NCBI RefSeq assembly: GCF_003790525.1
Contig: NZ_CP033636.1
Source: Escherichia coli
Lineage (GTDB): Bacteria; Pseudomonadota; Gammaproteobacteria; Enterobacterales; Enterobacteriaceae
Direction: 5' to 3' (one strand)
Length of the DNA stretch: 64,000 nt
Translations under genes and position numbers: made by a program
The notes under the pieces: model-generated
Seen by the model: only the letters and a program-made list of their open reading frames with translations
What the model was told of the DNA's origin: nothing
The model's database searches: none
Part shown: positions 32,727 to 46,333 of the stretch, in pieces
How positions within the stretch are numbered: position 1 is the first letter of the stretch
How the letters are laid out: each line of letters begins with the position of its first letter

Positions 32727-32866
32727 ATACACTACCTCGAATTTGAGAGGAAGTGCCCCAGAAGGGAAGCGACTTCCCCACTGGGTTAGATAAAAATTTG
32801 GTTAAGCTAAAAGAAGATGCCAGCGACAGATTTTACATTGTCATAGACAAGTGTCTTCAGCCAACC

Positions 32867-32877
32867 AAAGTTACTTT
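32867..32877. repeat. AAAGTWACTTT palindrome copy 5 (intergenic P4-P5)
   Basis: Exact match ccAAAGTTACTTTTTTgg. Confidence 0.9.
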
Positions 32878-32897
32878 TTTGGACTGAAGCAAAAGGA

Positions 32898-33836: not shown

Positions 33837-33902
33837 TTACACTACCTCATGACTAAAAAGGAAGTGCTTCCCACCGGGAAGCAGGTTCCCGGATGGGTTA
33901 GA

Positions 33903-34823
33903 TTAATTATAAAAGAGTTCTTCAGAAGGTACATGCATTTCTGGTTTGAACTGTTTTAAGGAGTTGTTTATAGCTTTTCGATATAACCCTGAAGAGTGTG
34001 GCTTAAACATTTGATATTCCGTAACGAGCAGAGGAGACGTAAAGCATCCTAAGTTCACTAGTGAAATACTTGATGTTTCTTCACAAACATCTAATTCAGC
34101 GTATATCCGCCTCTTCATTACCCTGCCTGCTAAATAGCGACGAACATGATTTATAAACTTGTCCGCATCTGATATAGAATTAACTATATAATCAGATGTG
34201 ACTATCTGATTAGATACAGTTTCAGGTATAGCTTCGGCTATTATTTTTACGTTCATTTCATAATCAACACTATGGAAGCAAGCAAGAATTTGTGGCTTCG
34301 CGCTTTCTAAAATCTTTTCAAGAACAGAAAAAATCAGAGAGAACTCGTTTAAAATTCGCTTTTGTATAAGTCCATGTAGATGTTTTATGAAAGGAGAACC
34401 GTGTTCAACAAGGCCTAGTATAAGATCCTTAGAGGCCAAATCTGAGCGGTAATAAACGTATTCTAGATTATCCCGGTTAAATCCTTTGAAAAGCAAATCA
34501 GGCTGCTCTGAGACCAGTCGTAAATGAGTTGAAGCTATAGAAACTTCAAAACGAAAGTTCGCGAGATTTACAGGACCTGCTTTTAATGTAGCCGCTTCGG
34601 AAAAATAAATGAAAAGAGGATGCAAATCATCGTTACCACTGTAAAGATGGTCTGCACCCTTAAGATATTTCACCAAATGAGGTAGAAAAGATATTACTGG
34701 AATATCAGCCACAAATCGAATATGCCGAAATGGTTTTGAATCCAAATATATATTTTCCACTACAGCGCCAACAAAACCCATTTTAACAAGAATAGATTCA
34801 ACTAACTTTTGTATAGCATTCAT
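33903..34823 (-). CDS. paralogue-array protein P3 (306 aa, unknown function)
   Basis: Same size class and array position; AAGAGGG SD; homology to P4/P5 not verified. Confidence 0.5.
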   Translation of the reverse strand: MNAIQKLVESILVKMGFVGAVVENIYLDSKPFRHIRFVADIPVISFLPHLVKYLKGADHLYSGNDDLHPLFIYFSEAATLKAGPVNLANFRFEVSIASTHLRLVSEQPDLLFKGFNRDNLEYVYYRSDLASKDLILGLVEHGSPFIKHLHGLIQKRILNEFSLIFSVLEKILESAKPQILACFHSVDYEMNVKIIAEAIPETVSNQIVTSDYIVNSISDADKFINHVRRYLAGRVMKRRIYAELDVCEETSSISLVNLGCFTSPLLVTEYQMFKPHSSGLYRKAINNSLKQFKPEMHVPSEELFYN

Positions 34824-34843
34824 TTCAATACCCTCTTAATAGA

Positions 34844-34879
34844 GGGATTTCTCCCATAGGGAGAAATCCCTATGGGAGA
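34844..34879 (-). repeat. Two overlapping, mutually exclusive perfect hairpins between P2 and P3
   Basis: GGGATTTCTCCC-ATA-GGGAGAAATCCC (34844-34870) overlaps TCTCCCATAGGGA-GAAA-TCCCTATGGGAGA (34850-34879); followed by CCCTCT-ATTA-AGAGGG which pairs with the SD of P3. Confidence 0.7.
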
Positions 34880-34891
34880 AAATAATTTTAA

Positions 34892-35827
34892 TTAATAATT
34901 ATAGCGAAGCGCATGTTCTTTTTCACTAAGATGGTTTTCATATTCCGACTTACCAGAACTTAAACACTCTTTGAAAAAGACCTTTGAAAAATTCTTCAAG
35001 TCACTTCGGTTATTAATTTCTTTGTCAGACATCAACTTAGCTGAGTGTGAGGTATCAACAGGCCCCAACCACCATTCATATTTAATATAAACACAATTGG
35101 TTTGTGTATGTCCATTTAGAAATCGTTTTGCATTTCTAAGTATTTTTCTACAACCGTTAAGGTCTGAAAGTAAGATATCTGGAGCAATGAGCTCTTCCAG
35201 AATATGACCAGGTAAGCCTTTCCTAAAAAGCTCAACATCGTAACTACAATACCAGTCACGATAATTAAAAGCTTTAATAAGTCTTTCAGGTGTATCCAAA
35301 GATATCTTATTCAGGATTTTTAATGCAAAGCATACAGCATCTTTTAACAACTCGTGCACCTCAACATTGATAAATGAGAAAAACGAGCTTAATTCTTTCT
35401 CTAAGGAATTATACAACTTACCGTAAATATCCTGAGAAAAAAGATACTGCAATCTTTCTTTATTATAAGTGCAATTCGAAATTGAATAGACTTCTCCTCT
35501 TTCGATTTTGCACCCTTCCCTTAAAACTATAGGAAACCTCAAATGGTTAACAAAGAAAGAATGATTCTTTCTTTGCTTCAAAGCATCTAATTGAAATTTC
35601 GTAATTTCCTCCAGATTTGCATCTTCAAAACCTGGAAAGGGAATATCACAGAAACAAGAACTATATGCTTTTGCTGATTCATACATAAACTCCAGTGAAA
35701 CATCAGCATCAAAAGACATACCAGAGAACATGCCCTGCCCATTGTCTAAAAATGTAATGTTTTTAACCTGTATTTTTTTATGTTGAACAACCAAAAAGGC
35801 ATTAATGATTTTTTCGATAATTTTCAT
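34892..35827 (-). CDS. paralogue-array protein P2 (about 311 aa, unknown function)
   Basis: ATG at 35827 preceded by GAGAGAGG; the track ORF starts at an upstream TTG (35842). Confidence 0.5.
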   Translation of the reverse strand: MKIIEKIINAFLVVQHKKIQVKNITFLDNGQGMFSGMSFDADVSLEFMYESAKAYSSCFCDIPFPGFEDANLEEITKFQLDALKQRKNHSFFVNHLRFPIVLREGCKIERGEVYSISNCTYNKERLQYLFSQDIYGKLYNSLEKELSSFFSFINVEVHELLKDAVCFALKILNKISLDTPERLIKAFNYRDWYCSYDVELFRKGLPGHILEELIAPDILLSDLNGCRKILRNAKRFLNGHTQTNCVYIKYEWWLGPVDTSHSAKLMSDKEINNRSDLKNFSKVFFKECLSSGKSEYENHLSEKEHALRYNY

Positions 35828-35843
35828 GTGATCCTCTCTCAAT

Positions 35844-35879
35844 AAAAAAAGGGATCACTCCCATATGGGGTGTGATCCC
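35844..35879 (-). terminator. Terminator-like hairpin with U7 between P1 and P2
   Basis: On the minus strand: GGGATCAC-(13-nt loop containing palindrome CCCATATGGG)-GTGATCCC followed by T7, then the SD and start of P2. Confidence 0.6.
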
Positions 35880-35897
35880 CACATGGGTATAATTTAA

Positions 35898-36776
35898 TTA
35901 AAAATCTGTAAGACCTAAATCTTTATTTCTACCACAAACTGTAGAAGATATAAGACGTTTTACTCGCTTTCGAGCACTTCGGCCTGACGTATCTTTCAAG
36001 TACATCGGTAATGACAATGATGAAATTTGATTACTTCGCTTATGATGGCAGACTATATAGCCCTGCCTCCACCCCGAACGCACAAACTCACGGATGCGGT
36101 TAATATATGCCGAAGCTTGAGATTTTGTACTTATCGATTCAGAACACTTTAAGTTCTGTTCGATAGAGTAAAGCTCAGCCGCCATGAATTTCACCTCATA
36201 CAGCTCATCGCCATAACTTATAGTTTTCAACAGCTCTTCCTTTTCCCGAATGAAAAATACTTGCTGCATTCCAAGGATCAGGTCATAGGCCTCTCGAAAG
36301 AGGTCGATAAGCTTATTACGAACATAAATCATAAACTCCTCAAAGTGCTGAAGCCAGAAATAAGCCGCATTACTTATTTGTGAATTGTGAGAACAAACAA
36401 GCCCTTTAGCAAGCTCGACCTCTTCCTCCCGAAAAGTAAAGTTACTTTTCTTAAACCGACTTTGTTCAAAAATGCTTTGATGCATTTCTATCCATACAGA
36501 AACAAAACCGAGGGATTCAAATTCTTCGTTTAACAAATGTAAACTTTCGAAGATTTTCTGAATTTCGATCCCGATGTCATATGACAGTGGACATTCTTTT
36601 ATAGAATAAACATAACCGGGTAGGAAGTGAGATAAATGCTCAGTTCGCAAATATAAACTGAATTTAAGTTCTGTCAGTGGTTGTTTCAAAGATAACTTAG
36701 ATGATTCGCTTATATTTACTGGTTCAACGCCATTTCTAATCAAAATAGCTTTTACCAGGTCCGTAGCTAACTTCAT
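35898..36776 (-). CDS. paralogue-array protein P1 (292 aa, unknown function)
   Basis: First gene of the array; GGAGG SD. Confidence 0.5.
   Translation of the reverse strand: MKLATDLVKAILIRNGVEPVNISESSKLSLKQPLTELKFSLYLRTEHLSHFLPGYVYSIKECPLSYDIGIEIQKIFESLHLLNEEFESLGFVSVWIEMHQSIFEQSRFKKSNFTFREEEVELAKGLVCSHNSQISNAAYFWLQHFEEFMIYVRNKLIDLFREAYDLILGMQQVFFIREKEELLKTISYGDELYEVKFMAAELYSIEQNLKCSESISTKSQASAYINRIREFVRSGWRQGYIVCHHKRSNQISSLSLPMYLKDTSGRSARKRVKRLISSTVCGRNKDLGLTDF
36438..36448. repeat. AAAGTWACTTT palindrome copy 6 (inside P1 CDS, encodes S-N-F register)
   Basis: Exact match gaaaagtAAAGTTACTTTTc. Confidence 0.9.
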
Positions 36777-36854
36777 ACAGCCTCCATTCGTTATTGAGGC
36801 CTCCCTGATGCAGGTTGGCCATCAGGGAAAATATGTAAATCAATTAGCAATCAA

Positions 36855-37376
36855 TCAGACCGTTGCCATGACATTGTCAATGTATCTGACAAGGGATGGG
36901 CGGTCGTCCTGTAAGGCAAAACGGCGAAGGTCATCAAGATTATACGCAGGAAGATAATCAGCGTAACCTCGAATACGAAGGTCCTCAACCACAACTTTTA
37001 TATACTCAAATCGTCCAAGATTCCCTTTTAATGGGGGTTTTCCTGGACTAGACAGCATATCGTCTGCTTGCTCCCATGTGATTTCTTTAGCTTCACCACT
37101 ATGTAGATCAAGATGGACATATATGAATGACTTATAATCTCCACGGCAACGAAGATAATATTTCGGATAGAAATATTTGTCACAACGCAACAAACACGTT
37201 CCTGAAGGACGAACTACGTACAACAGGTTTCTGTCATTTTCTAATATGCTATGTTTCAAAATCGTTATATCTATCTCATTATCATGCAGCAAATAGCATG
37301 ACGATGGTTCATTGACGATGCGCGATTTTATAACAGCAGCAAATTTATTAAAAACTTCGTTAATTTGAAAATTCAT
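36855..37376 (-). CDS. hypothetical protein (173 aa)
   Basis: ORF from track. Confidence 0.4.
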   Translation of the reverse strand: MNFQINEVFNKFAAVIKSRIVNEPSSCYLLHDNEIDITILKHSILENDRNLLYVVRPSGTCLLRCDKYFYPKYYLRCRGDYKSFIYVHLDLHSGEAKEITWEQADDMLSSPGKPPLKGNLGRFEYIKVVVEDLRIRGYADYLPAYNLDDLRRFALQDDRPSLVRYIDNVMATV

Positions 37377-37569
37377 TAAAATGCTCTCCGATGTAAAACG
37401 ACGAGCATCACCATAACGGTAATACTCCCGTTATGGGTTTTAATAGTTTATGGAATAACCATGTCATACAACCGACCATAGCCAGTAGTACCGCACATTT
37501 ATTTAACTGAGCAAGCATCTCAGCCGTGAAAAGACCTTAAAGGCAGGTAATTATCACGAAGGAAAGCGG

Positions 37570-37613
37570 TTATCTTATCAATACAATTTTAAAATATAAT
37601 ATTGATAAGATAA
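37570..37613. promoter_or_regulatory. 14-bp perfect inverted repeat TTATCTTATCAATA / TATTGATAAGATAA with 16-bp AT-only spacer (candidate operator or origin-like site)
   Basis: Read directly; immediately followed by the CCCCCGC-AAAAA-GCGGGGG hairpin (37614-37636); lies between the primase stop and the next gene. Confidence 0.5.
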
Positions 37614-37646
37614 CCCCCCCCGCAAAAAGCGGGGGAGTTATCGTTG

Positions 37647-38879
37647 TTACAGCTGATTAAGACATTCAGGAGCCCAGTGAATCGGGAATCCATCCTGCCC
37701 TGTTAACTGGAGAACATCGTTCCAGTCGATACCCTTTTTCCCATCAGGAATATCTTGTGCTGGTTCGAAGACTTCAATTGTCAGCTTTGATGCGGGATAT
37801 CGTTTAGCCAAAAACTCAACCATGCGGCTTTGAAGTCGCTGAGCAGCTTCAATACCGGCACGAGTGCCTTGTGAGTTAGCAATATCCTTATCCGCCCAGA
37901 TATAAAAGTTTATAGATTTTACATCCGGCGGAGGCAGTAAAAAATCAGGAACAGTAACGTTTTCAAGGCACCATGCGGAGCTGGCTGCCCAGCATGGTGT
38001 TGAAGTCGCTTCTACAACAGAAAGCGCGTTCTCGATCCCTTCAGCCACTCCCAGTGTCCAGGTCGAACTACCTGAATCATAGTGAGGGTCAAACAACTGA
38101 ATTGAGCCACCTGTCATATCGGCAGGAGGCTTCATCATCAGCTTTGGATTTTCTACAGGTGCCTTATCACCATTTTTGTCTACGTATGTTCTATGAATAG
38201 TCAGAGGCCGACCTCGGGTGTCACGATAGATCGCAATCATTCCCGGATAGATAATCGATTTCTGCTTATCTTTATCCCAATAGTAGATCCGGTTATTAAA
38301 GCCTAAATCCTTTGGTAAGTGACTCAGTAAGCGGGAGATCCCACGATTACGGAGGTACAAAGCAACAGGAGTATTAGGCTTGATTTCACCGGTATAGTGA
38401 TACATCACATCAAGTTTTCGCATTCGCTTTGCCACTTCCTCTCGGTCAAGAGTTTCTGTGGCACGAACTGCTGATTTATAGCGTCGTTCATTTTCAATGT
38501 CGGCGTCAGTTAACGGAGCATGCAGATCCATCCCGAAAAAATCTGAGAGAATCTTTTTGCAAGTCTGCGTTTTACTTAATTCATAATATTTCGCCAGAAC
38601 ATCAATTCCGTCGCAAAACTCATTTACCGGAAAGTCATTATGGATCGCACATCCGGTATAAAGGTCTTTTTGTCGGAAACGAAACTTCGATTTCCCTGCG
38701 CCAGTAAACGGGCAAGGAACCTGGCTCGGGGCTTTTGCACAAGCGTCTTTGAAAGCAGGTATTCTTTCGAATATATACTTCCAGCCAGACACTTCAGCAA
38801 TTCGAGCATGAACGAGTTTAATAAAGTGTTCAGATACTTCCTGTGGATTACGACGAAGAGCCGGGGATGCATAAGTCAT
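37647..38879 (-). CDS. DNA primase-like protein (CHC2 zinc finger plus TOPRIM domain)
   Basis: Zinc-binding motif CPFTGAGKSKFRF...C.H; TOPRIM-like GVAEGIENA and WADKDIANSQG; start taken at ATG 38879, track ORF starts at 38951 and overlaps the upstream terminator. Confidence 0.65.
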   Translation of the reverse strand: MTYASPALRRNPQEVSEHFIKLVHARIAEVSGWKYIFERIPAFKDACAKAPSQVPCPFTGAGKSKFRFRQKDLYTGCAIHNDFPVNEFCDGIDVLAKYYELSKTQTCKKILSDFFGMDLHAPLTDADIENERRYKSAVRATETLDREEVAKRMRKLDVMYHYTGEIKPNTPVALYLRNRGISRLLSHLPKDLGFNNRIYYWDKDKQKSIIYPGMIAIYRDTRGRPLTIHRTYVDKNGDKAPVENPKLMMKPPADMTGGSIQLFDPHYDSGSSTWTLGVAEGIENALSVVEATSTPCWAASSAWCLENVTVPDFLLPPPDVKSINFYIWADKDIANSQGTRAGIEAAQRLQSRMVEFLAKRYPASKLTIEVFEPAQDIPDGKKGIDWNDVLQLTGQDGFPIHWAPECLNQL

Positions 38880-38960
38880 GATGATCTCTCTTATCTGGCA
38901 TTGTGAGTTTCTCAATGCCTTCTGCGGTGCAGAAGACAGGGAGAAACCCACAACGCAGAA

Positions 38961-38987
38961 TTTAAGAAAGAGGGCCCGGGGGCCCTC
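38961..38987 (-). terminator. Terminator-like hairpin after the 73-aa gene
   Basis: GAGGGCCC / GGGCCCTC stem followed on the minus strand by a U-rich tract (TTTCTTAAATT). Confidence 0.5.
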
Positions 38988-38992
38988 AACAT

Positions 38993-39214
38993 TTATGCTT
39001 CAGTCGTGAAGCCATTATTCTCAAGACACTGTATGTAGTTATCTACAAGTAACGCAGCCTGCTGGCTATTACCCTCCGCTATAGTGACTTCGCGGAAGAT
39101 TCTTTCCTGAGGGCTATCATTGCTTATAACTTCACCAACACGTCCGAAAATACGGACTTTATGCATCGCACCGACTTTTTCATGTTCTACACGGTAAGTT
39201 TTTATCTGAGTCAT
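38993..39214 (-). CDS. hypothetical small protein (73 aa)
   Basis: AAGGAG SD; no motif recognised. Confidence 0.4.
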   Translation of the reverse strand: MTQIKTYRVEHEKVGAMHKVRIFGRVGEVISNDSPQERIFREVTIAEGNSQQAALLVDNYIQCLENNGFTTEA

Positions 39215-39242
39215 ATTTTGCTCCTTATTCCTTCATGGAGCA
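39215..39242 (-). other. Hairpin that pairs with the SD of the 73-aa gene
   Basis: TTTGCTCC (39215-39222) pairs with GGAGCAAA (39235-39242); on the mRNA the AAGGAG SD lies inside the stem. Confidence 0.45.
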
Positions 39243-39285
39243 AAAAGACCCACCGGGGCCTTTTGCCCCGATTGGGTAGAGTTTA

Positions 39286-41298
39286 TTAAGAAAGTATTTG
39301 ATGAACTAGCTTACTGACTTCAATAGACAATAAAGAAGTATCATCAACTGTTACGAAAGTGTCCGTTTCAAAACCAATTATTTCATCAGTCTTAATACCA
39401 ACACCAACGATTTCTATTCCATTACATTTAGCCTTTTCCATAACTTCGCCGATAGTAAATTCCGATTTATTCGGATAACCATCAGTTATAAGAAAAATTA
39501 TTTTCCTATCGAATTGGCTGTCAAGTAACAGATCAACAGCTGCCATTAAAGCCGATCCCGTAGGGGTATAATAACCCTTACATCCAAGAGTGAATTTCGA
39601 TAGAGATTCCTCAACGCTTTGATCAAACGTTTTGATAATCTCAAATTCACTTTCCTTGAAGGGAAAGACTATATTGGAGACATGCATTTTTGACAAACTT
39701 TCAGCGGCCATCGATAAAGCAAGATCTGACTTAATGGCATGAATATATCTTTCATCATTAGCCATTGACGCTGAAATATCACGAACTAATACGAGGCCAA
39801 CATGCCCTCTATTTTTAGATTCGCTTTGAGCTCTGAAGACATCACGAACTCCCATTGGTGACAGAATTAATCGATTTCCATCGAAGGTAATTCCACGCTC
39901 ATGAGTTTTGTTTCGGCCACGCATTTTAACCTGCTGTAAAACAGACAAGTCGCTACCGATTGAATGACTCAGAGACAAAGCCTCATTGTAAACATTCAAA
40001 TCGATAAGGAGATCAGGGATATCCCATTCAGAAGCACCGAATTCGGCTTTCACGTCATCGGATACTTTTGATGCAATACCTTCAATCTCTTCAGCCAAAG
40101 CATCGTGATAATCTTCGCTATCCTCATCACTGCCAAGAAAGGCATCCAACAAATCTGCCAGTATCTCCCATTGAGCCGATGAAAAGTTACTTTCATCTTC
40201 AACGTTAGTCGAACTGGCTTCATCTGATTCACTCTCGGAAGGGTTAATCGCATCAGTATCGTCTTCAATAATGTTATCACCTGTGGGATTGCCACCGGTG
40301 GGTTCATTATTTCCCTCGTTATCTTCAGCAAGTTCTGAAGGCTCAGAACATCCCTCTTGAGCAAGATCAGAGTTATCGGAAGTATCTGCCTGACCTTCAC
40401 TATCGTCCTCAGAATCATCCTCACGACTATCAGTCGACTCAAGCGATTTATCTTCTGATTCGGTATCGGTATCGGTATCGGTCTCGGATTCATCATATGC
40501 CTCCTGCTCCTCCTGCTCTGTCTGCTGCTGTTGTTCCCTTGCCTCATCCCGCAGTCTCTCTAAAAGAGCCAGGGTCTTACGAGCAAGGGATTCACAGCCC
40601 TGAGTATTTTCACAACCAAGAGCATCATGAAAAATTTCCTCAACATCAGAAATTACTGGAGAAAGTATCTTTTGGGCATAGTCAAAAAACGGATCGAGTG
40701 TTTCTTTGTGACCTGCCTGCTGAAGGACTTTTACTCGCAATGAGTTAAGCAGATACCACTCAATAAATAGGACAGGATTTTCCGGACGAGAAGATATATC
40801 AGGAGTCATCCTTCCGGCTTTAACCATCAGTGCGTAAGTGGCTGCAAGCCGCCGCTTTGCATCCGGATAATCGTTACCAACCTTCTCTTCCATCTGTACA
40901 TCATCGAACAGATTTATAAGCCCGGTAAGACGTTTTGCCCTGCTATAAGCTTTACGTTTCTCAGCGAGGCTCTCAAACTCTGCATTCATTCCGTCATCGA
41001 AGCGTGTAAACCCTTCAGATGACTTGAGAACACTATTAAAGGCGTCACTGTAAACCTCGCTGTCGGTATAGCGACCATGACCAGCTTCATGACAGGTAAA
41101 ACCTTCAATCAGACTGACAAAGTCATCATCGCTATAATCGCCGTTTGGTAAAACACAAACTTTATTTACAGGATCAAAATACGGTCCTTTGGTATTGTCG
41201 TCTATTACAACTCTTACATCGCCTAAGCCGCTAATGACTTTTGCTATATTCTGTAAACGCTTAATATGGCGCGGTGATGATTTAAGATCTAATTTCAT
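39286..41298 (-). CDS. vWA domain protein with acidic low-complexity region (CobT-like)
   Basis: 670 aa; C-terminal vWA (LVLVRDISASM...FLITDGYPN); central acidic, Asp/Glu/Ser-rich region with TDTDTDTE repeat; AAAGAGG SD. Confidence 0.65.
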   Translation of the reverse strand: MKLDLKSSPRHIKRLQNIAKVISGLGDVRVVIDDNTKGPYFDPVNKVCVLPNGDYSDDDFVSLIEGFTCHEAGHGRYTDSEVYSDAFNSVLKSSEGFTRFDDGMNAEFESLAEKRKAYSRAKRLTGLINLFDDVQMEEKVGNDYPDAKRRLAATYALMVKAGRMTPDISSRPENPVLFIEWYLLNSLRVKVLQQAGHKETLDPFFDYAQKILSPVISDVEEIFHDALGCENTQGCESLARKTLALLERLRDEAREQQQQTEQEEQEAYDESETDTDTDTESEDKSLESTDSREDDSEDDSEGQADTSDNSDLAQEGCSEPSELAEDNEGNNEPTGGNPTGDNIIEDDTDAINPSESESDEASSTNVEDESNFSSAQWEILADLLDAFLGSDEDSEDYHDALAEEIEGIASKVSDDVKAEFGASEWDIPDLLIDLNVYNEALSLSHSIGSDLSVLQQVKMRGRNKTHERGITFDGNRLILSPMGVRDVFRAQSESKNRGHVGLVLVRDISASMANDERYIHAIKSDLALSMAAESLSKMHVSNIVFPFKESEFEIIKTFDQSVEESLSKFTLGCKGYYTPTGSALMAAVDLLLDSQFDRKIIFLITDGYPNKSEFTIGEVMEKAKCNGIEIVGVGIKTDEIIGFETDTFVTVDDTSLLSIEVSKLVHQILS
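40183..40193. repeat. AAAGTWACTTT palindrome copy 7 (inside vWA CDS, S-N-F register)
   Basis: Exact match tgAAAAGTTACTTTcat. Confidence 0.9.
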
Positions 41299-41314
41299 AG
41301 AATACCTCTTTATA

Positions 41315-41362
41315 AAAAAGGGGTACTCACCCAGATGGTGAAGTACCCATCTGGGGTTTTTA
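41315..41362. terminator. Bidirectional terminator-like palindrome between the 379-aa gene and the vWA gene
   Basis: AAAAAA-GGGGTACTCACCCAGATGGTGAAGTACCCATCTGGGG-TTTTT; nested stems CCCAGATGG/CCATCTGGG and GGGTACT/AGTACCC flanked by A6 and T5. Confidence 0.6.
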
Positions 41363-41375
41363 ATAAAGCAAACAG

Positions 41376-42503
41376 TTACCAGCCTTTGAGCTCGATATCA
41401 AAACCATTTTCAACATTGTCTTCCTGTTGCGAAACTGATTTCTCAGGTTCAGCTACAGGATCAGTGTTTGAAAACGTGCTGTTATTTATATCGTTCTCTA
41501 CGACAGGTTCAACCTGGAACACATTTGTTGAATCTAAAATAGCTTCAATACCTGTGTTCTGTAGCGCGTTCGGTTCTGTTTGTGAGCTTTGATTAAATGA
41601 TCTGGTAATAGATTCCAACCAGTCAGTAACCTTTTGCTCTCCTGAAATAATACGCTTTAACATTGAAGCATCACTCATGAAATAAAACCACTGCTGTAAC
41701 ACCGCAACGTCGCGAGGTTCAGAAATGGCACCTTTAGGTAAATTATTCATTATGTGTTTTATAGCTTCTGCAAGTACTGCCGCCTCTTTATGTATAAACA
41801 TGAAGCTAATGATCTTATTTTGCATTTGCTTCAGTCGGTCAATAGTACTTGAGCGCAAATTGTTATTTTTGCTAATTTTTTCATAAACCTTCATTGCTTC
41901 TTCTGCCAGATCTGTTATCAATTGTTCCTGATAGTAGTCCTGGGTTTCATCACCTTCAACGCTAATAGGCGTAAAAGGAATAAAGTGAGCAATATTAAAT
42001 CTAAAGGATTTTATGAAATCATCTTTAGTTAATTTCAACTGATCAATCAAAGAAGACATTCTTGGGCTTCTATTTTTTTCAGCCTCAATATGCATCTCAT
42101 AATTGTCTACAACGTTTTGAATACCTGCCTGAAACTCTCGTTCAATCTCTTGGGCCCCTTCCAGAAACTCTTCCATACTGGATACTGGTAAAATCCACAT
42201 ATTGCTATAGCGGATGCACAAGCGTGAGCAAAGAGTTGATATTCTGCTGGTAATCGTACTTTTGAAGCTAAGGGCTTTTATGTCAATCCAGCGTACTTCG
42301 CTTTTAGATACGCTTTTTTGATCCGTAATATCATCTCCATCATAAGACAAATCGATTTTATCGGTTCGACGCGATCCTTGACAGCCACTTATTTCAATTT
42401 TTGTTATAACTGCACCTTCCAGTAAATCTGGATATGATTTTGCAAAATTCTCAGAGATTTGTTTTGCAGATACTTTGTTAAGCATTGAAGTATTTAAAGT
42501 CAT
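41376..42503 (-). CDS. hypothetical protein (about 375 aa)
   Basis: ATG at 42503 preceded by GGAG; the track ORF starts at TTG 42515; sits between the AAA+ and vWA genes. Confidence 0.45.
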   Translation of the reverse strand: MTLNTSMLNKVSAKQISENFAKSYPDLLEGAVITKIEISGCQGSRRTDKIDLSYDGDDITDQKSVSKSEVRWIDIKALSFKSTITSRISTLCSRLCIRYSNMWILPVSSMEEFLEGAQEIEREFQAGIQNVVDNYEMHIEAEKNRSPRMSSLIDQLKLTKDDFIKSFRFNIAHFIPFTPISVEGDETQDYYQEQLITDLAEEAMKVYEKISKNNNLRSSTIDRLKQMQNKIISFMFIHKEAAVLAEAIKHIMNNLPKGAISEPRDVAVLQQWFYFMSDASMLKRIISGEQKVTDWLESITRSFNQSSQTEPNALQNTGIEAILDSTNVFQVEPVVENDINNSTFSNTDPVAEPEKSVSQQEDNVENGFDIELKGW

Positions 42504-42871
42504 GGGTTTCTCCAAAAAAAAGGGGAAACCCTCCCCAACGGGAAAGATTTCCCGATAGGGTTGATATTAAAGCTTCTCTGGTGAAATTAAAAGAATACCG
42601 GGAAACTCAGCAACAACATCATCATTGCCCATTGCTCCCTGATACATATAACCTTTTAATTCCATTTGTTTAATCAGACCTTCCATATTTATTTTACCAT
42701 CATGATAAAACAATAAAGAATAGTCGTTATTCAGTTGCATAAGTCCAGTAAAATTAGTTCCGTTTTTTGCTATAGCAATGGTAGCAGCACCATCCGTACT
42801 TAAAAACGCACTAAATTCAAGATGGGATAACTCTGAGATACAAATATCAGAGGTTTCATAACAAATCCCAT

Positions 42872-43930
42872 CTAACTCGACTTTTTTGCTGTGAAATACT
42901 CCAGCGATTTATCCTTGTCTTCGCCAAGAGAAAGATCTATAGCTTGAAGAACAAGATCGACCACATGTAAAGGTAAAGCAGAAGCAAAAGCTATTTTGAA
43001 AGTGTCAAGAAGACTAAAGGTTTTTAACGTCATCGACGTGCCAACCCAAGCTACTAATTGACGAATATCCATCACACTGTCTTCTGTACCAGAGTCATTT
43101 ACTGCAATCGCTACTCTTACGAACTTCTCAATGACCTGAAAAGGCAAAGAGCTATATCGTTTAGTAAGCACATTGGTTAAAGCAACTTTGTCGGGCTTCT
43201 CCATTTCAACTATCAAGAACCGCTTTATAAAAGCTGCATCTTGACGTTGAGAAGAAACGAACCGGCGAGCGCCTCCACTCATGTTTGTGTTTGCAGTACC
43301 AATAAATCGCGTGTAGCCATTAGCAGTTATAACCTCACCACCATTAGCACTGAGTGACCAGGGCTTACGTTCAATGGGCATGTGAAGTTTTGCTGCCGTA
43401 TCAGGATCGATTTTGTCCACTTCATCCAGAAGAATGAGGTGACCATTACGAAATCCCGTTACCAAATCGCTGTGTACAAAACCTGTATTACCACCATTAA
43501 GACTGCGCTCACCTTCAAGCTCATCAACTCGAATATTGCTGTTGATCTGCTTAATTGTCAGCGGCCAATTCATCATGTGGCTAATGTACATTACCATTTC
43601 AGTCTTGCCAGAACCGGACTCACCTTTAAGACACACACTTAAATCTATATCCGGACTGATAAGCAGTTTAACCACTTGTTCAAGTATTCGGGGATTTGGT
43701 ATGTAGTCTTTGTTCAGCGGAGCTCGATACGAGGTTTTAGTTTTGAAAACAGGCACAGCCATCTTTGGATCCATTTCTGGAATACCAAAAAGGTCCTTTG
43801 CTAGAACTAAAAGATACTCACCTTTATCCACATAATGTTTTAACTTTATAACATCCGGGGAAAGAAGAGCTTCTAATTTTTCATAAGCATCAGAAGATGT
43901 TTCATTTAACTTCATAGCGGCATTAGACAT
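42872..43930 (-). CDS. AAA+ ATPase (MoxR/CbbQ/CobS-like)
   Basis: Walker A GESGSGKT and Walker B LILLDEVD; 352 aa; paired with the downstream vWA gene as in MoxR-vWA and CobS-CobT systems. Confidence 0.7.
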   Translation of the reverse strand: MSNAAMKLNETSSDAYEKLEALLSPDVIKLKHYVDKGEYLLVLAKDLFGIPEMDPKMAVPVFKTKTSYRAPLNKDYIPNPRILEQVVKLLISPDIDLSVCLKGESGSGKTEMVMYISHMMNWPLTIKQINSNIRVDELEGERSLNGGNTGFVHSDLVTGFRNGHLILLDEVDKIDPDTAAKLHMPIERKPWSLSANGGEVITANGYTRFIGTANTNMSGGARRFVSSQRQDAAFIKRFLIVEMEKPDKVALTNVLTKRYSSLPFQVIEKFVRVAIAVNDSGTEDSVMDIRQLVAWVGTSMTLKTFSLLDTFKIAFASALPLHVVDLVLQAIDLSLGEDKDKSLEYFTAKKSS

Positions 43931-43987
43931 TTTTAACTCCGGTAAAATGCAAACACCGCCCTCTGGCAGATGTTTGCCAGTGGCATT

Positions 43988-44965
43988 TTATTTGAGATTC
44001 ATTTGGCAAATAGTTGCCATCAGTTTCCTGATTTGAGGCACATTATAACCAAGATGATTTCCCACTATTTCAAAAGCTTCAGACATGATCCATTCAAAAT
44101 GATTTTCGAATATTGGATTGATTTCTAACTTGCCAAAAGCGTTTCGTTTAGTTAACAGATCACATGAAACAAGCTCGTCAAACAACTCTAATGTGGATTT
44201 AAAAGCTTTTATGTAAACATCCATAATTTCCCTGTCAGTCCATTTAACAGCCAGTTTTTTTTCTGACATTAAATAATCCTGATCAAAGAAGATGTCCCAG
44301 CCCATATCGTCATTGCAATCATGCAAAATGATTTCATCATCATTCCTGCATTCAGCTAATTTCGTGTTTTCACTAATCGAACGATGCGAATGATAATAGA
44401 GCCATGATTTTAATTCCGCTCTAAATTCACATGCATCAAGTCCATGACATAAACAAGTGTATTCAAATGATTTTGACATATACCACCGTGTTTCAGCTTC
44501 TAAAAGTGGATTCACTGTGATATTACCATTGTCATCTTTGAAGAATAACTTTCTCCTCAACACTAGTTCTTTAATGATTTCCAAAGACTCTTCCATAGCG
44601 GATAGAAAAACAACATACACATCCTCAGGGGTCCATTCTATTACCAGACCACCCAAATCTGGGTTATATTCTTCAACCGTATATAGATAATCTGTTTCTG
44701 CTGCAAAATTAATTGTATGCAAAATCTGATTTTTAAGTAATTTGGATTTTTCATAAAGGTGATTTTCACGCCTTTCAGAATCATAATTTATCTCAGAAAT
44801 GTTACTTTCTTCTGATTTAAAGTTTAATCCGGACGTGTAAGCATCATTTAAATGCTCTTTGGGTGAATCAACTATTTGCGTTATTTCATCTTCATCTATA
44901 TCGAGTATAGAAAAAAAACTAAGTTGATTACTACTTATTGCAGTAGCCCTAAATTTTTGTTTCAT
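43988..44965 (-). CDS. hypothetical protein (325 aa)
   Basis: ORF from track; GGAG SD. Confidence 0.45.
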   Translation of the reverse strand: MKQKFRATAISSNQLSFFSILDIDEDEITQIVDSPKEHLNDAYTSGLNFKSEESNISEINYDSERRENHLYEKSKLLKNQILHTINFAAETDYLYTVEEYNPDLGGLVIEWTPEDVYVVFLSAMEESLEIIKELVLRRKLFFKDDNGNITVNPLLEAETRWYMSKSFEYTCLCHGLDACEFRAELKSWLYYHSHRSISENTKLAECRNDDEIILHDCNDDMGWDIFFDQDYLMSEKKLAVKWTDREIMDVYIKAFKSTLELFDELVSCDLLTKRNAFGKLEINPIFENHFEWIMSEAFEIVGNHLGYNVPQIRKLMATICQMNLK

Positions 44966-44978
44966 GGGGACTCCAAAA

Positions 44979-45005
44979 GGAGAAATCCCATGAAGGGATT
45001 TCTCC
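44979..45005 (-). repeat. Perfect 11-bp-stem hairpin, arm-swapped relative of the hairpin at 34844
   Basis: GGAGAAATCCC-ATGAA-GGGATTTCTCC; same stem sequence as 34844-34870 with the two arms exchanged; followed on the minus strand by UUUU, SD and ATG. Confidence 0.7.
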
Positions 45006-45025
45006 CCTTTAGGGTGGGTTTAATG

Positions 45026-45403
45026 TCAGATCTGATTAAAGCTACTTTGTCCAAAACCTTTTAGAGGTTTAGGTATGTGAGCCAACTTACTTGTTGCTAC
45101 CACTCTCATGTAGTCAAGAGGATGTTCTCTCCCTTCAATCATAATAGTATCGACAACAATATAACCGGAGACCATCAACTCATCACCCTGATTTATACCA
45201 GTGAAACAGGTTGAATACATTTCAGGCGACACCTTGATTTGAACTGAAAATTCTCTCTCAGTGATTTCACCATCAACTTCTGTCTTCATCCTATTTTTGA
45301 GCTTTATTAACAAACCTATACTCTGGTCAGTCATTTTTTTCTCCACAGCACTGATAACTATCCCGGACACTTTTACTTCATTGATATATTCAAGATATGA
45401 CAT
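45026..45403 (-). CDS. hypothetical protein (125 aa)
   Basis: GAGGAG SD. Confidence 0.4.
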   Translation of the reverse strand: MSYLEYINEVKVSGIVISAVEKKMTDQSIGLLIKLKNRMKTEVDGEITEREFSVQIKVSPEMYSTCFTGINQGDELMVSGYIVVDTIMIEGREHPLDYMRVVATSKLAHIPKPLKGFGQSSFNQI

Positions 45404-45460
45404 TTTCCGCTCCTCGATTTGTTCAAAGAGAAGCCCCGTTAGGGTTCCCCCTTAACAGGA

Positions 45461-46333
45461 TTAAATAAATTTATTAGTTACATACATGAACGTGCAGACT
45501 ACCAAACAGGCAATTCCGGCAATATGTAACCAATTTCTTGTTGGTTTAGTTGGTGCAATCGCTAAAGAGTTCTCCAACTTCTCTGTTACAAGACGTCGAT
45601 TCTCTGCTTTAGCCGCATCATCTAAATATTGAGTTTCACGCTTAGCGAGAGTCTCAATTTTCGATTTTATTGCATGGTCCCATCCTTTAGTTTCAAAAAC
45701 GCTTAACTCACTAAAGGTGTGCGTCATGAGATCTTCTGGGAAACCCAGTTTTTTCATTAACGGACGAATGGTATCATACATTTTTTCTACATTTTCGTAG
45801 TGGGCCTTTACTGCGACATCAAAACGCTTACGTAAAGTTAATTTTTCACGTTTGCAAATGATGTCCGAAACCCAATTTATTAACTGCTCATTTTTGAGTT
45901 CACTGGCTTTTTCAAGTGAGTAATCCAGATTATCCACGTCAAGAAATGAATTTAATCCGTATTTTTCAAACTCCTCAACAAGATATTTATCCAGTTCAGT
46001 TAAGCTTTTAAAAAGTGGTACATCTGGGGAAGCTTTAAGAAGCTTATAAGCTCCTTCGAAATCAATTTTCTTGACCACGAGCTCCACAACATCCACATGA
46101 TAATAGCTTGAATAAGCAGAAAGCTTTTCGGCCAACAAAGACACAGGCTTAAGAGACTTAAGTTCAATGATATTTGGGCCGTCCTCATTCAAAATAACAA
46201 TCAGTTCATTATCACGTTCTGTATATTTCATCAGAACTTCTAAGAGCTGTTTGTTTAGCGCCTTATCCATCTCTGGAATAATTTCACTAAAGGTTTGATG
46301 AAGGGCTTTACTGCGAGCTTTATTTTTAGACAT
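45461..46333 (-). CDS. hypothetical protein with C-terminal membrane anchor (290 aa)
   Basis: C-terminal hydrophobic helix WLHIAGIACLVVCTFMYV; AGGTGA SD. Confidence 0.45.
   Translation of the reverse strand: MSKNKARSKALHQTFSEIIPEMDKALNKQLLEVLMKYTERDNELIVILNEDGPNIIELKSLKPVSLLAEKLSAYSSYYHVDVVELVVKKIDFEGAYKLLKASPDVPLFKSLTELDKYLVEEFEKYGLNSFLDVDNLDYSLEKASELKNEQLINWVSDIICKREKLTLRKRFDVAVKAHYENVEKMYDTIRPLMKKLGFPEDLMTHTFSELSVFETKGWDHAIKSKIETLAKRETQYLDDAAKAENRRLVTEKLENSLAIAPTKPTRNWLHIAGIACLVVCTFMYVTNKFI

What the first reader, a model, noticed from the sequence alone, without database searches (positions are those of the whole stretch)
37647..43930. Primase plus CobT-like vWA plus MoxR/CobS-like AAA+ ATPase block inside a unidirectional AT-rich gene train
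A CHC2/TOPRIM primase, a 670-aa vWA protein with a long acidic region, a 379-aa unknown protein and an AAA+ ATPase are tightly linked and codirectional with about 25 further unknown genes, ending with a UvrD-like helicase. Unidirectional blocks with a primase and many small unknown genes are typical of plasmid leading or early-expressed regions that carry anti-defence functions, and AAA+/vWA pairs also occur in chaperone and defence contexts. The function of this set is not evident from sequence.
Basis: partly seen in the sequence, partly recalled or inferred. Interest (0 to 1): 0.65.

Follow-up and report, generated by a model that had tools for sequence, protein, structure and literature searches.

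The report
Plasmid CobS/CobT-like AAA+ motor–adaptor module
This block is a conserved backbone module of IncHI2 resistance plasmids: an ATP-driven motor, an adaptor protein with an intact-looking zinc-protease site, and an unknown third protein; its motor is related to one that helps IncC plasmids survive restriction enzymes on entering a new cell.

Summary
The genes are real and sit at the stated coordinates. They are 100% identical in over 1,100 IncHI2-type plasmids. The block is plasmid backbone next to the Tra2 transfer region. It is not a leading region: the relaxase and mobI lie at least 100 kb away.

The conserved unit is a trio: an AAA_5 ATPase, DUF3150, and a CobT-like protein. That order recurs in IncHI1B, IncC, Shewanella, Aeromonas and Pseudomonas plasmids at 20-40% identity. 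The primase (DUF7146+Toprim, not CHC2) is a frequent neighbour, not a constant one.

The ATPase is a homologue of IncC Vcrx089 (27% identity, E=2e-25). Vcrx089 with Vcrx090 gives type I anti-restriction in the recipient. No Vcrx090 homologue is present here.

Three points appear to be new:
- The CobT-like N-domain is M48-peptidase-like and keeps an invariant HExxH...N-x3-D-x3-E in all 14 orthologues examined.
- 84% of DUF3150 proteins end in an acidic tail with a terminal aromatic residue, as Vcrx090 does.
- A GC-rich hairpin family marks the intergenic gaps of these operons across plasmid families.

Best reading: a motor-adaptor-third-subunit machine built like CobS-CobT-CobN, acting on proteins during establishment, probably to evade restriction. 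A replication-accessory role is a serious rival. No PADLOC defence model matches meaningfully, and it is not a cobalt chelatase.

The parts
42872..43930 (-). AAA+ motor: AAA_5 (MoxR/CobS/CbbQ/NorQ-clade) ATPase, 352 aa; homologue of IncC Vcrx089
   Evidence: Pfam AAA_5 E=9e-28. The nearest PDB sequences are Midasin AAA modules, NorQ, CobS and CbbQ. BLASTP against Vcrx089 gives 27% identity and E=2e-25. Walker A GESGSGKT, Walker B LLDEVD, sensor-1 N and the Arg residues are conserved in 9 orthologues. TIGR01650 CobS scores 34 bits against a cut-off of 558.
42567..42740 (-). Small 57-aa ORF (RefSeq WP_001176647.1) in the variable slot that Vcrx090 occupies in IncC
   Evidence: Annotated in pS304_1 and translated. 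The slot after the AAA gene holds unrelated proteins of 147-302 aa in the IncC, Shewanella, pPUV-9 and P. putida loci, and nothing in L002, L003 and L011. They show no sequence similarity to one another (L005, L006 and L007 tested).
41376..42515 (-). DUF3150 protein, 379 aa (RefSeq start 42503): candidate third subunit or client
39286..41298 (-). CobT-like adaptor, 670 aa: M48-like zincin N-domain with HExxH (residues 1-255), acidic disordered linker (about 255-400), and a C-terminal vWA domain with intact MIDAS
38993..39214 (-). 73-aa protein of unknown function, conserved in IncHI1B
   Evidence: 30% identity to the 76-aa protein at the same position in L002. No family hits.
37647..38951 (-). 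DnaG-type plasmid primase (DUF7146 + Toprim_3); a frequent but not constant neighbour of the trio
   Evidence: Pfam. PHROG 510 DNA primase, E=2e-27. A toprim gene lies within the fetched flanks in 5 of 8 loci (window, L002, L003, L006, L007) and not in L005, L011 or L012. The catalytic motifs are conserved.
43988..46333 (-). Three upstream co-directional genes (325 aa, 125 aa, 290 aa) shared only with IncHI1B; the 125-aa protein may be an SSB-like OB fold
   Evidence: Orthologues lie in the same order in L002. There are no Pfam, NCBIfam or PADLOC hits, and the only PHROG hit is one marginal match for the 290-aa protein. The profile of the 125-aa family has one PDB hit, an SSB OB domain aligned over its full length, at E=0.16. 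None resembles Vcrx090 by hhalign; the 325-aa and 290-aa families give probabilities of about 1%.
46728..48512 (-).
   Evidence: RefSeq annotation. It is 49% identical to the helicase in the IncHI1B locus L002 and 33% to the one in the Aeromonas locus L003.
32756..45014 (-). Seven intergenic GC-rich hairpins of the form (A)ACCC-N-GGG...CCC-N-GGG, at 32756-32785, 33870-33897, 34853-34876, 35860-35887, 39249-39276, 42533-42560 and 44987-45014
   Evidence: All seven sites lie in intergenic gaps of this train. There are none elsewhere in the window and shuffles average 0.15. Whole-gap folds give z = -4 to -10. The same class occurs in the orthologous operons of six divergent plasmids; 50 of 50 sites are outside CDSs in the four loci where coding placement was scored.

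Best explanation
The block encodes a three-part protein-remodelling machine specific to mobile elements and built on the CobS-CobT-CobN plan, together with the plasmid's own primase.

The AAA_5 ATPase forms the hexameric motor. The 670-aa CobT-like protein is the adaptor. Its M48-like N-domain would dock on the motor's lid. A segment ahead of the vWA domain would enter the pore. The MIDAS face would hold a partner through an acidic residue. DUF3150 takes the genetic place of the third ('executor' or client) subunit. It has no catalytic signature and carries an acidic tail ending in an aromatic residue.

The machine is made from a backbone operon next to Tra2. It most likely acts on proteins when the plasmid establishes itself in a new host, and the output is protection of incoming DNA from restriction, type I above all, as shown genetically for the homologous motor Vcrx089 in IncC.

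Because the adaptor keeps a complete gluzincin signature, the action may include ATP-assisted proteolysis of a target, not only remodelling.

Shown: domain identities, conserved motifs, conserved gene order, homology to Vcrx089, and distance from oriT.

Inferred: the assembly (by analogy with CobSTN), the role of DUF3150, the anti-restriction output in IncHI2, and any proteolysis.
For: 1. The trio AAA-DUF3150-vWA keeps its order in the window, IncHI1B/FIB, Aeromonas, IncC, Shewanella, pPUV-9, pWTJH2 and a P. putida megaplasmid. In the window-versus-locus comparisons run, identities are 26-52% (AAA), 21-41% (DUF3150) and 22-33% (vWA).

2. In IncC, ssb-bet-exo sits between the AAA gene and DUF3150. 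In P. putida the order is ssb-recT-exo-AAA-hyp-DUF3150-VWA. So the experimentally defined Vcrx089 motor belongs to this trio. RT-PCR in pVCR94 used a primer in vcrx094, which I take to be the DUF3150 gene from gene order in a sister IncC plasmid. It showed one transcript running from vcrx087.

3. Vcrx089-090 give anti-restriction in the recipient, and the pair is catalogued in AntiDefenseFinder.

4. The motor and MIDAS motifs are intact.

5. The cryo-EM and crystal work on CobSTN shows motor, adaptor and executor. CobT_N has an M48C-like fold and binds the CobS lid, a shaft enters the ring, and CobN is held between CobT_N and the MIDAS side (bioRxiv 10.64898/2026.07.21.739949). My model of the N-domain has the same topology and hits M48/M56 peptidases.

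6. HExxH...N-x3-D-x3-E is invariant in 14 sequences, including phage and phage-plasmid clades.

7. DUF3150 and the unrelated Vcrx090 share an acidic tail ending in an aromatic residue: 74 of 88 and 11 of 11, against 6 of 81 background proteins. That fits alternative partners using one docking site.

8. ArdC is a precedent for a plasmid gluzincin that counters HsdRMS from within the recipient.
Against: - No Vcrx090 homologue is in the block by BLAST, phmmer or hhalign. The published phenotype is for the vcrx089-090 pair, and no experiment has tested DUF3150 or the vWA gene.
- Identity to Vcrx089 is only 27%, so function may have diverged.
- There are no experimental data for IncHI plasmids.
- In phages and phage-plasmids the CobT-like/AAA pair lacks DUF3150 and sits directly upstream of dnaE. 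In plasmids its neighbours are a primase, a helicase and ssb. Both patterns point to replication.
- ArdC's protease site was dispensable for its anti-restriction activity, so a conserved HExxH does not prove that proteolysis matters.
- The block is at least 100 kb from oriT, so early entry and expression cannot be assumed.
Confidence: 0.45

Rival explanations
1. Replication or DNA-processing accessory. The AAA+/CobT-like machine (with DUF3150 in plasmids) remodels or recruits replisome or ssDNA-handling proteins for the element's own replication or complementary-strand synthesis. The partners could be host SSB-interacting proteins, the plasmid primase or helicase, or a polymerase. Any anti-restriction effect would be secondary.
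For: The neighbours are consistently DNA-metabolism genes. They include a Toprim primase in 5 of 8 loci, the TrhI-type helicase, ssb-bet/recT-exo, a PD-(D/E)XK nuclease, a DEAD helicase, HU, a 3'-5' exonuclease and a Tus-like protein. In a Rhizobium phage and in Y. pestis pMT1 the CobT-like/AAA pair lies just upstream of dnaE. More than 1,000 plasmids of about 100-115 kb, many of phage-plasmid type, carry that clade. The DUF3150 and Vcrx090 tails resemble the acidic tail with terminal Phe of SSB and of T7 gp2.5 and gp4, which are replisome docking motifs (the resemblance rests on my own knowledge). The 125-aa neighbour may be an SSB-like OB fold.
Against: No member of the MoxR/CobS clade is known to act as a replication factor. 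The only genetic phenotype for a homologue is anti-restriction that depends on hsdR in the recipient, and transfer into hsdR-deleted or isogenic recipients was normal without vcrx089-090. The gene-neighbourhood argument is weak on large plasmids, where establishment, repair and anti-defence genes are routinely mixed.
Confidence: 0.3
2. Genuine cobalt (or other tetrapyrrole) chelatase subunits, that is, an auxiliary metabolic gene set, as the database names 'CobS', 'CobT' and 'porphyrin biosynthesis protein' imply.
For: Weak hits to TIGR01650 CobS and to a putative cobaltochelatase model, and PHROG labels 'porphyrin biosynthesis' and 'CobT'. CobS and CobT are among the PDB sequence matches. A YfaE-like 2Fe-2S ferredoxin lies downstream in the IncC and Aeromonas loci.
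Against: The scores are 34 bits against curated cut-offs of 558 and 779. No CobN-like subunit is present: the only ORFs over 1,000 aa in the window are the transfer proteins TrhN and RSP. DUF3150 occupies the third position instead. The module is conserved across plasmids of hosts with and without aerobic B12 synthesis. The IncC homologue has an anti-restriction phenotype.
Confidence: 0.03
3. An anti-phage or anti-plasmid defence system of the MoxR-vWA type, carried by the plasmid.
For: AAA+/vWA pairs occur in conflict systems (own knowledge). Marginal PADLOC hits to DolB, IetA and PDC-M37B fall on the P-loop region.
Against: The PADLOC E-values are 2e-4 or weaker and cover only about 35-80 residues of the ATPase core. 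The genes are core backbone, 100% identical in over 1,100 plasmids, and are not in a variable island. They lie in one co-directional train with transfer and establishment genes, and in IncC the homologues are co-transcribed with the hde genes. No nuclease, TIR, protease-effector or other toxic effector domain is encoded in the trio.
Confidence: 0.05
4. A classical leading-region island: a set of unrelated, early-expressed anti-defence genes that enter first during conjugation.
For: A one-directional train of many small unknown genes, the presence of a primase, and orphan methyltransferases in related loci. Leading regions are known to carry anti-defence genes (PMC11541004, listed).
Against: mobI and the MobH relaxase are at 188-192.5 kb and the block is at 41-47 kb on a 254.9-kb circle. 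The trio is a co-evolving unit, not a collection of unrelated genes.
Confidence: 0.07

Closest known systems
[quoted passage not shown] 2020; Dimitriu et al. 2024; AntiDefenseFinder 'vcrx089_090')
   Same: The AAA_5 ATPase is homologous (27% identity, E=2e-25). It belongs to the same conserved gene set, with DUF3150 and a CobT-like vWA protein downstream. It sits in the same family of MOBH/MPF_F conjugative elements, next to traN- or trhN-type transfer genes.
   Different: No Vcrx090 homologue is present, and no ssb-bet-exo lies between the genes. A primase is attached instead. The published work did not consider DUF3150, the vWA protein or the zincin motif, and no phenotype is known for IncHI2.
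Aerobic cobaltochelatase CobS-CobT-CobN (cryo-EM preprint 10.64898/2026.07.21.739949)
   Same: The architecture of the two smaller subunits matches: an AAA+ clade-7 motor, and an adaptor with an M48C-like N-domain, a disordered linker and a vWA/MIDAS C-domain. It is also a three-gene logic.
   Different: The scores are far below the equivalog cut-offs. CobN is replaced by the unrelated 379-aa DUF3150. The adaptor has a strictly conserved HExxH...E. The preprint's main text contains no occurrence of 'zinc' or 'HEXXH', and I could not test whether genuine CobT has the motif. The context is a plasmid backbone, not a cob operon.
MoxR-vWA chaperone pairs CbbQ-CbbO (Rubisco activase) and NorQ-NorD (NO reductase maturation)
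   Same: An AAA_5 motor plus a vWA partner with a MIDAS site. NorQ, NorD and CbbQ are among the nearest solved sequences. A motor and adaptor acting on a specific client is the shared principle (own knowledge).
   Different: The adaptor has a zincin-like N-domain with catalytic residues and a very long acidic linker. The client is unknown. The module is carried by mobile elements.
ArdC of plasmid R388 (PMC7213743)
   Same: A plasmid-encoded gluzincin (HExxH plus a Glu on the next helix) that overcomes HsdRMS and is needed in the recipient, not the donor.
   Different: ArdC is a single protein with an ssDNA-binding domain and has no AAA+ or vWA partner. Its E229A mutant still works. No sequence relationship was tested or is claimed.
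CobT-like/CobS-like pairs of phages and SSU5/pMT1-type phage-plasmids ('porphyrin biosynthesis protein')
   Same: Homologous motor and adaptor, with the same HExxH, N..ED...E and MIDAS motifs. PHROGs 249 and 1576 match.
   Different: The gene order is reversed (adaptor, then motor). There is no DUF3150 in the neighbourhoods examined. The pair lies just upstream of dnaE.

Membership tests
Vcrx089-Vcrx090 (hde) anti-restriction system | AAA_5/CbbQ-type ATPase homologous to Vcrx089 | tested here: met
   BLASTP gives 27% identity over 275 aa, E=2e-25. Pfam AAA_5. The CbbQ_C lid domain was not detected by Pfam in the window protein.
Vcrx089-Vcrx090 (hde) anti-restriction system | Vcrx090-family partner encoded next to the ATPase | tested here: not met
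   No hit by BLASTP or phmmer to any protein of the gene train. hhalign of an 11-sequence Vcrx090 profile against the 325-aa, 290-aa and DUF3150 families gives probabilities of 0.4-1.1%. The slot holds an unrelated 57-aa ORF.
Vcrx089-Vcrx090 (hde) anti-restriction system | Same operon as ssb-bet-exo | tested here: not met
   No Bet, Exo or SSB homologue was found among the train proteins by BLASTP. There is only a weak SSB-like lead for the 125-aa protein.
Vcrx089-Vcrx090 (hde) anti-restriction system | Relieves type I restriction of incoming plasmid DNA, acting in the recipient | not testable with these tools
   Shown only for IncC. No IncHI data were found.
Cobaltochelatase CobNST | CobS and CobT reach the curated equivalog scores | tested here: not met
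   TIGR01650 scores 34.4 bits against a cut-off of 558.55. TIGR02442 scores 33.5 against 779.45.
Cobaltochelatase CobNST | CobN catalytic subunit present | tested here: not met
   The only ORFs over 1,000 aa in the window are TrhN and RSP. The third gene of the set is DUF3150.
Cobaltochelatase CobNST | CobT architecture: M48C-like N-domain, linker, vWA with MIDAS | tested here: met
MoxR-type AAA+ / vWA remodelling pairs | Catalytically competent AAA_5 ATPase | tested here: met
   Walker A, Walker B, sensor 1 and the Arg residues are conserved in 9 orthologues.
MoxR-type AAA+ / vWA remodelling pairs | Co-encoded vWA protein with an intact MIDAS site | tested here: met
   DxSxS...T...D is invariant. 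The two are co-encoded in 8 of 8 loci.
M48-like gluzincin metallopeptidase | HExxH on an 'active-site helix' that follows a three-stranded sheet | tested here: met
   H70-E71-x-x-H74 is invariant in 14 sequences. It lies in helix 58-77, after strands 29-33, 40-42 and 47-51.
M48-like gluzincin metallopeptidase | Third zinc ligand (Glu) on a following helix, positioned next to the two His | tested here: inconclusive
   E137 is invariant, with N129 and D133, on helix 111-143. I could not inspect the model coordinates, so the geometry is unverified.
M48-like gluzincin metallopeptidase | Fold similarity to M48 peptidases | tested here: met
M48-like gluzincin metallopeptidase | Peptidase activity | not testable with these tools
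   This needs biochemistry. The ArdC precedent shows that such a site can be dispensable.
DnaG-type primase with CHC2 zinc finger | Toprim catalytic domain | tested here: met
   Toprim_3 E=7.5e-12. The EGIE and ADxD motifs are conserved.
DnaG-type primase with CHC2 zinc finger | zf-CHC2 zinc-binding domain | tested here: not met
   No Pfam zf-CHC2 match. Only one Cys and one His are invariant in four orthologues.
Plasmid leading region | Lies within the first kilobases next to oriT | tested here: not met
   mobI and MobH are at 188-192.5 kb and the block is at 41-47 kb of 254.9 kb. That oriT lies next to mobI in MOBH elements is my own knowledge; it was not mapped here.
Known anti-phage defence systems (PADLOC) | Significant match to a defence-system protein model | tested here: not met
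   There are only marginal hits: P-loop hits for the ATPase at E of 2e-4 or weaker, and one DRT-model hit at E=0.0044 for the primase. There is nothing for DUF3150 or the vWA protein.

The most novel reading that the evidence does not exclude
Conjugative plasmids, phages and phage-plasmids share a previously unrecognised ATP-driven machine derived from the chelatase motor-adaptor pair. In it, the CobT-like adaptor is an active M48-type zinc peptidase tethered by a long acidic linker to a MIDAS domain. Interchangeable third subunits (DUF3150, Vcrx090) dock through an SSB-tip-like acidic tail ending in an aromatic residue. On entry into a new cell the machine captures and unfolds or cleaves a host factor, such as the HsdR motor of type I restriction enzymes or an SSB-interactome nuclease. 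That would make it an enzymatic, ATP-consuming anti-defence mechanism unlike the known DNA-mimic or methylation strategies.
Probability: 0.2. Interest if true: 0.85.

Novelty: new variant of a known kind. Interest (0 to 1): 0.6.

Why it matters
IncHI2, IncHI1, IncC and SXT/R391 elements are major vehicles of multidrug resistance, including mcr and carbapenemase genes. All of them carry this module in their backbone.

The only functional clue so far is the Vcrx089-090 anti-restriction phenotype, and its mechanism has not been explained. Three observations here turn that open question into specific experiments:
- The motor always travels with DUF3150 and a CobT-like adaptor.
- The adaptor keeps a complete zinc-peptidase signature.
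- DUF3150 and Vcrx090 share a terminal docking-type motif.

The work also corrects a widespread misannotation ('cobalamin/porphyrin biosynthesis protein') on thousands of plasmids and phages, including Y. pestis pMT1. If the machine is needed for establishment in restriction-proficient hosts, it is a determinant of host range and a possible target for blocking plasmid spread.

Tried and rejected
- **Defence-system reading.** PADLOC gave only marginal hits, mostly to the ATPase P-loop. Rejected.
- **Chelatase reading.** Scores are far below the cut-offs and there is no CobN. Rejected.
- **Leading-region reading.** The relaxase and mobI are at least 100 kb away. Rejected.
- **Locus scans with DUF3150 alignments.** Both alignments were too divergent for the tool. 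I used tblastn on the plasmid and phage collections instead.
- **Word-indexed homologue searches.** They returned mostly near-identical or truncated proteins.
- **Contigs encoding distant DUF3150 representatives.** They were too short for context.
- **Vcrx090 counterpart.** BLAST, phmmer and hhalign were all negative.
- **Whether genuine CobT keeps HExxH.** Profile and single-sequence searches of the PDB aligned only the vWA domain. A plasmid tblastn found phage-plasmid homologues, not canonical CobT. This remains untested.
- **Covariance model of the intergenic hairpins.** MAFFT could not register the variable arms and RNAalifold kept only 4 base pairs. I abandoned it. I make no covariation claim, because the set was selected by a pairing criterion.
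- **Rfam.** No match in the window.
- **TnSeq supplement of Roy et al.** Not held.
- **Literature.** No paper links DUF3150 to a function. No IncHI-specific data on these genes were found.

Full report
**1. What is there**

- Primase: 37647-38951.
- 670-aa vWA protein: 39286-41298.
- 379-aa protein: 41376-42515.
- AAA+ ATPase: 42872-43930.
- Also in the block: a 73-aa ORF at 38993-39214 and a 57-aa ORF at 42567-42740.

The 6.3-kb stretch is 100% identical in the best-matching plasmid records. 1,121 of the 1,406 matching records have their best match at 99% identity or more. These are large conjugative plasmids of Escherichia, Salmonella, Enterobacter and Klebsiella. A complete example, pS304_1, types as IncHI2A / MOBH / MPF_F. 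The window is therefore IncHI2 backbone.

The train of about 24 co-directional genes starts at TrhI (46728-48512), the last gene of the Tra2 transfer region. It runs down through a Tus-like terminus protein (28205-29185). GC content is 0.35-0.42 there, against about 0.5 in the left part of the window.

**2. Domain identities**

- **ATPase.** Pfam AAA_5. Its nearest solved relatives by sequence are Midasin AAA modules, NorQ, CobS and CbbQ. The Walker A, Walker B, sensor-1 and arginine residues are conserved in nine orthologues.
- **379-aa protein.** Pfam DUF3150.
- **670-aa protein.** It has a C-terminal vWA domain with an invariant MIDAS site and an extremely acidic linker.
- **Primase.** DUF7146 + Toprim_3, with no CHC2 zinc finger. 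Only one Cys and one His are invariant among orthologues.
- **Other libraries.** NCBIfam hits to CobS and to a putative cobaltochelatase model are more than 500 bits below the cut-offs. PADLOC gives only marginal hits.

**3. The conserved unit is a trio**

tblastn with DUF3150 and with a distant homologue found about 2,000-2,400 plasmid records. I inspected seven divergent loci:
- IncHI1B/FIB Klebsiella (L002)
- Aeromonas pAeme5 (L003)
- IncC (L005)
- the Pseudomonas megaplasmid pPUV-9 (L006)
- a Shewanella MOBH plasmid (L007)
- P. aeruginosa pWTJH2 (L011)
- a P. putida megaplasmid (L012)

The order AAA, then DUF3150, then CobT-like vWA holds in all of them. Identities to the window proteins are about 20-50%. 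A short metagenomic contig has DUF3150 next to an AAA_5 gene, in the reverse order.

A variable, unrelated small gene often sits just after the AAA gene. A Toprim primase lies in the fetched flanks in 5 of 8 loci. The neighbours are DNA-metabolism genes throughout: helicases, ssb-bet/recT-exo, nucleases, HU and orphan Dam/Dcm methylases.

**4. Link to a known phenotype**

In IncC the arrangement is traN ... AAA - hyp - ssb - bet - exo - DUF3150 - VWA. The AAA and 'hyp' genes are Vcrx089 and Vcrx090 of pVCR94.

- Roy et al. showed that deleting the pair lowers transfer into V. cholerae 25-fold. The effect needs the recipient's type I hsdR. It is complemented from the recipient, not the donor.
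- They also showed one transcript running from vcrx087 into vcrx094, using an RT primer in vcrx094. I take vcrx094 to be the DUF3150 gene from gene order in a sister IncC plasmid.
- Dimitriu et al. found that restriction by EcoBI and EcoKI rose 424- and 906-fold when the pair was deleted from pKAZ3.
- AntiDefenseFinder lists the pair as a system.

The window ATPase is a clear homologue of Vcrx089 (27% identity, E=2e-25). In the P. putida plasmid the AAA gene lies after ssb-recT-exo and directly before hyp-DUF3150-VWA. That shows the Vcrx089-type motor belongs with DUF3150 and the vWA protein.

None of the papers I found mentions DUF3150 or the vWA protein in this connection. Vcrx090 has no counterpart in the IncHI2 train by BLAST, phmmer or profile-profile comparison.

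**5. The adaptor is CobT-like end to end and keeps a zinc-peptidase signature**

Two of six orthologues hit Pfam CobT (PF06213), which my reading takes as the family's N-terminal part.

A July 2026 preprint on Brucella CobSTN reports four things:
- CobT_N has a peptidase-M48C-like fold and binds the lid of CobS.
- A 'shaft' ahead of the vWA domain inserts into the CobS ring.
- The vWA domain carries the MIDAS site.

H70-E71-x-x-H74 and N129-x3-D133-x3-E137 are invariant in 12 orthologues at 15-38% identity. They are also present in a Rhizobium phage protein and in the Y. pestis pMT1 protein.

I could not obtain a genuine CobT N-domain sequence to see whether it has lost the motif. The preprint's main text contains no occurrence of 'zinc' or 'HEXXH'.

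ArdC of R388 is both a precedent and a caution. It is a plasmid gluzincin that counters HsdRMS from within the recipient, yet its E229A mutant remains active.

**6. DUF3150**

- The family has 118 representative clusters in 1.84 billion proteins.
- The model is confident: pLDDT 84.5, residues 30-300 mostly above 90, and a disordered tail from about residue 320.
- It has no informative structural neighbour in the PDB.
- DUF3150-like folds exist in tailed phages.
- No polar residue is invariant across 88 sequences. That argues for a structural, adaptor or client role, not an enzymatic one.
- 74 of 88 members end in F, W or Y after a net-acidic tail, against 6 of 81 proteins from the same loci. 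All 11 Vcrx090-family proteins end in (D/E)(D/E)xFF although the families are unrelated.

Such tails recall the SSB C-terminal tip and the T7 gp2.5 and gp4 tails. That resemblance is from my own knowledge and is a lead, not a test.

**7. Not a leading region**

In pS304_1, mobI and the MobH relaxase lie at 188-192.5 kb and the block at 41-47 kb of a 254.9-kb circle. That is about 108 kb one way and about 141 kb the other. That oriT of MOBH elements lies next to mobI is my own knowledge; it was not mapped here.

**8. Mechanism**

The best-supported reading is a motor-adaptor-third-subunit machine on the CobSTN plan that acts on proteins during establishment. Its probable output is restriction evasion.

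- Shown: motifs, folds, gene order and homology.
- Inferred: the assembly, the role of DUF3150, the phenotype in IncHI2, and any proteolysis.

The main rival is a replication-accessory role. Its support is the constant DNA-replication neighbourhood, above all the CobT-like/AAA pair lying just upstream of dnaE in a Rhizobium phage and in pMT1. That clade is present in more than 1,000 plasmids of about 100-115 kb. The two readings are not exclusive.

**9. Novelty**

The genes are annotated only generically in RefSeq. The motor's relative has a known phenotype, and the fold of CobT_N has just been described. What appears to be new is:
- the recognition of the trio as one unit that includes Vcrx089;
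- the conserved peptidase signature in the adaptor;
- the shared terminal motif of DUF3150 and Vcrx090;
- the intergenic hairpin family.

I class the finding as a new variant of a known kind.

**10. Seen in passing: an intergenic hairpin family**

Almost every intergenic gap of the train between 32.7 and 45.5 kb folds into a strong GC-rich hairpin (z = -4 to -10).

A simple pattern, CCC-N2-6-GGG ... CCC-N2-6-GGG with MFE of -12 or lower, finds seven sites. All are in these gaps, none is elsewhere in the 64-kb window, and shuffles average 0.15.

The same class occurs in the orthologous operons of other plasmids:
- IncC: 14 sites
- Shewanella: 12
- P. putida: 15
- pWTJH2: 9
- IncHI1B: 5
- pPUV-9: 4

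In the four loci where I scored coding placement, all 50 sites are outside coding sequences, although non-coding DNA is only 14-21% of those loci. There are none in 100 kb of the rest of the IncHI2 plasmid. An 'AA' before the first CCC, present in at least 70% of sites, was not imposed by the pattern.

Roy et al. described intergenic, partly palindromic repeats in IncC as substrates for Bet/Exo repair. These may be the same elements. Their presence in plasmids where no bet/exo was found, in the window's gene train or in the fetched IncHI1B flank, suggests a more general role.

Noticed in passing
window 32756-32785, 33870-33897, 34853-34876, 35860-35887, 39249-39276, 42533-42560, 44987-45014 (minus-strand sense); also L002, L005, L006, L007, L011, L012: A family of GC-rich intergenic hairpins, (T)AACCC-N-GGGG...loop...CCCC-N-GGGG, often starting at the stop codon. 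It marks the gaps between consecutive genes of this operon. It also marks the orthologous operons of IncC, IncHI1B, Shewanella and Pseudomonas plasmids (4-15 sites per ~20 kb against 0.55 or fewer in shuffles; 50 of 50 sites outside CDSs in the four loci scored). It is absent from 100 kb of the rest of the IncHI2 plasmid. Possible roles are a REP-like mRNA element, priming sites on single-stranded DNA, or exonuclease pause sites. It may correspond to the rptI-IV repeats of IncC.
   Followed up: partly
window 41376-41500 (C-terminal tail of DUF3150); L005 6136-7044 (Vcrx090): DUF3150 proteins (74 of 88) and the unrelated Vcrx090 family (11 of 11) both end in an acidic tail with a terminal aromatic residue, for example DDDLDFGFGF, DELDFGGW and EQEDHFF. 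The background rate is 6 of 81. The tails resemble the SSB C-terminal tip and the T7 gp2.5/gp4 tails.
   Followed up: partly
window 45026-45403 (-): The only PDB hit for the profile of the 125-aa protein is an SSB OB domain aligned over its full length (E=0.16), and Pfam finds nothing. Its conserved C-terminus, PKPxxGFGxSxF, is reminiscent of the GFG-rich DUF3150 tails. It may be a cryptic plasmid SSB.
   Followed up: partly
L014 4956-8654 (Y. pestis pFra/pMT1); L013 4843-8734 (Rhizobium phage RHph_N1_10): A sister clade of the CobT-like/AAA pair has the same HExxH and MIDAS motifs but no DUF3150 nearby. It is annotated 'porphyrin/cobalamin biosynthesis protein' and lies just upstream of dnaE in a phage and in pMT1. 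More than 1,000 non-mobilizable plasmids of about 100-115 kb carry it. The annotation is probably a widespread misnomer.
   Followed up: partly
window 31770-36776 (-): A run of five consecutive proteins of about 300 aa with no family hits follows the primase: 320, 312, 306, 316 and 292 aa. Only the 312- and 320-aa proteins are detectably paralogous (27% identity, E=7e-37).
   Followed up: partly
window 38880-38992 (-): The gap between the 73-aa gene and the RefSeq start of the primase folds into a very stable long hairpin (MFE -61.9 kcal/mol over 113 nt, z about -10). It overlaps the alternative upstream GTG start at 38951 and may be a translational control element for the primase.
   Followed up: no
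window 28205-29185 (-) and about 25431-25643: A Tus-like replication-terminus protein sits in the same co-directional train as the primase and the trio. An Hha/YmoA-family regulator is encoded a few kb beyond it. This fits H-NS/Hha silencing of this AT-rich backbone, which is my own knowledge and was not tested.
   Followed up: no
L005 15966-16190; L003 13803-14027: A YfaE-like 2Fe-2S ferredoxin gene recurs a few genes downstream of the vWA gene in the IncC and Aeromonas loci (42% identity to each other). No counterpart was seen among the window's train proteins. Its meaning is unknown.
   Followed up: no
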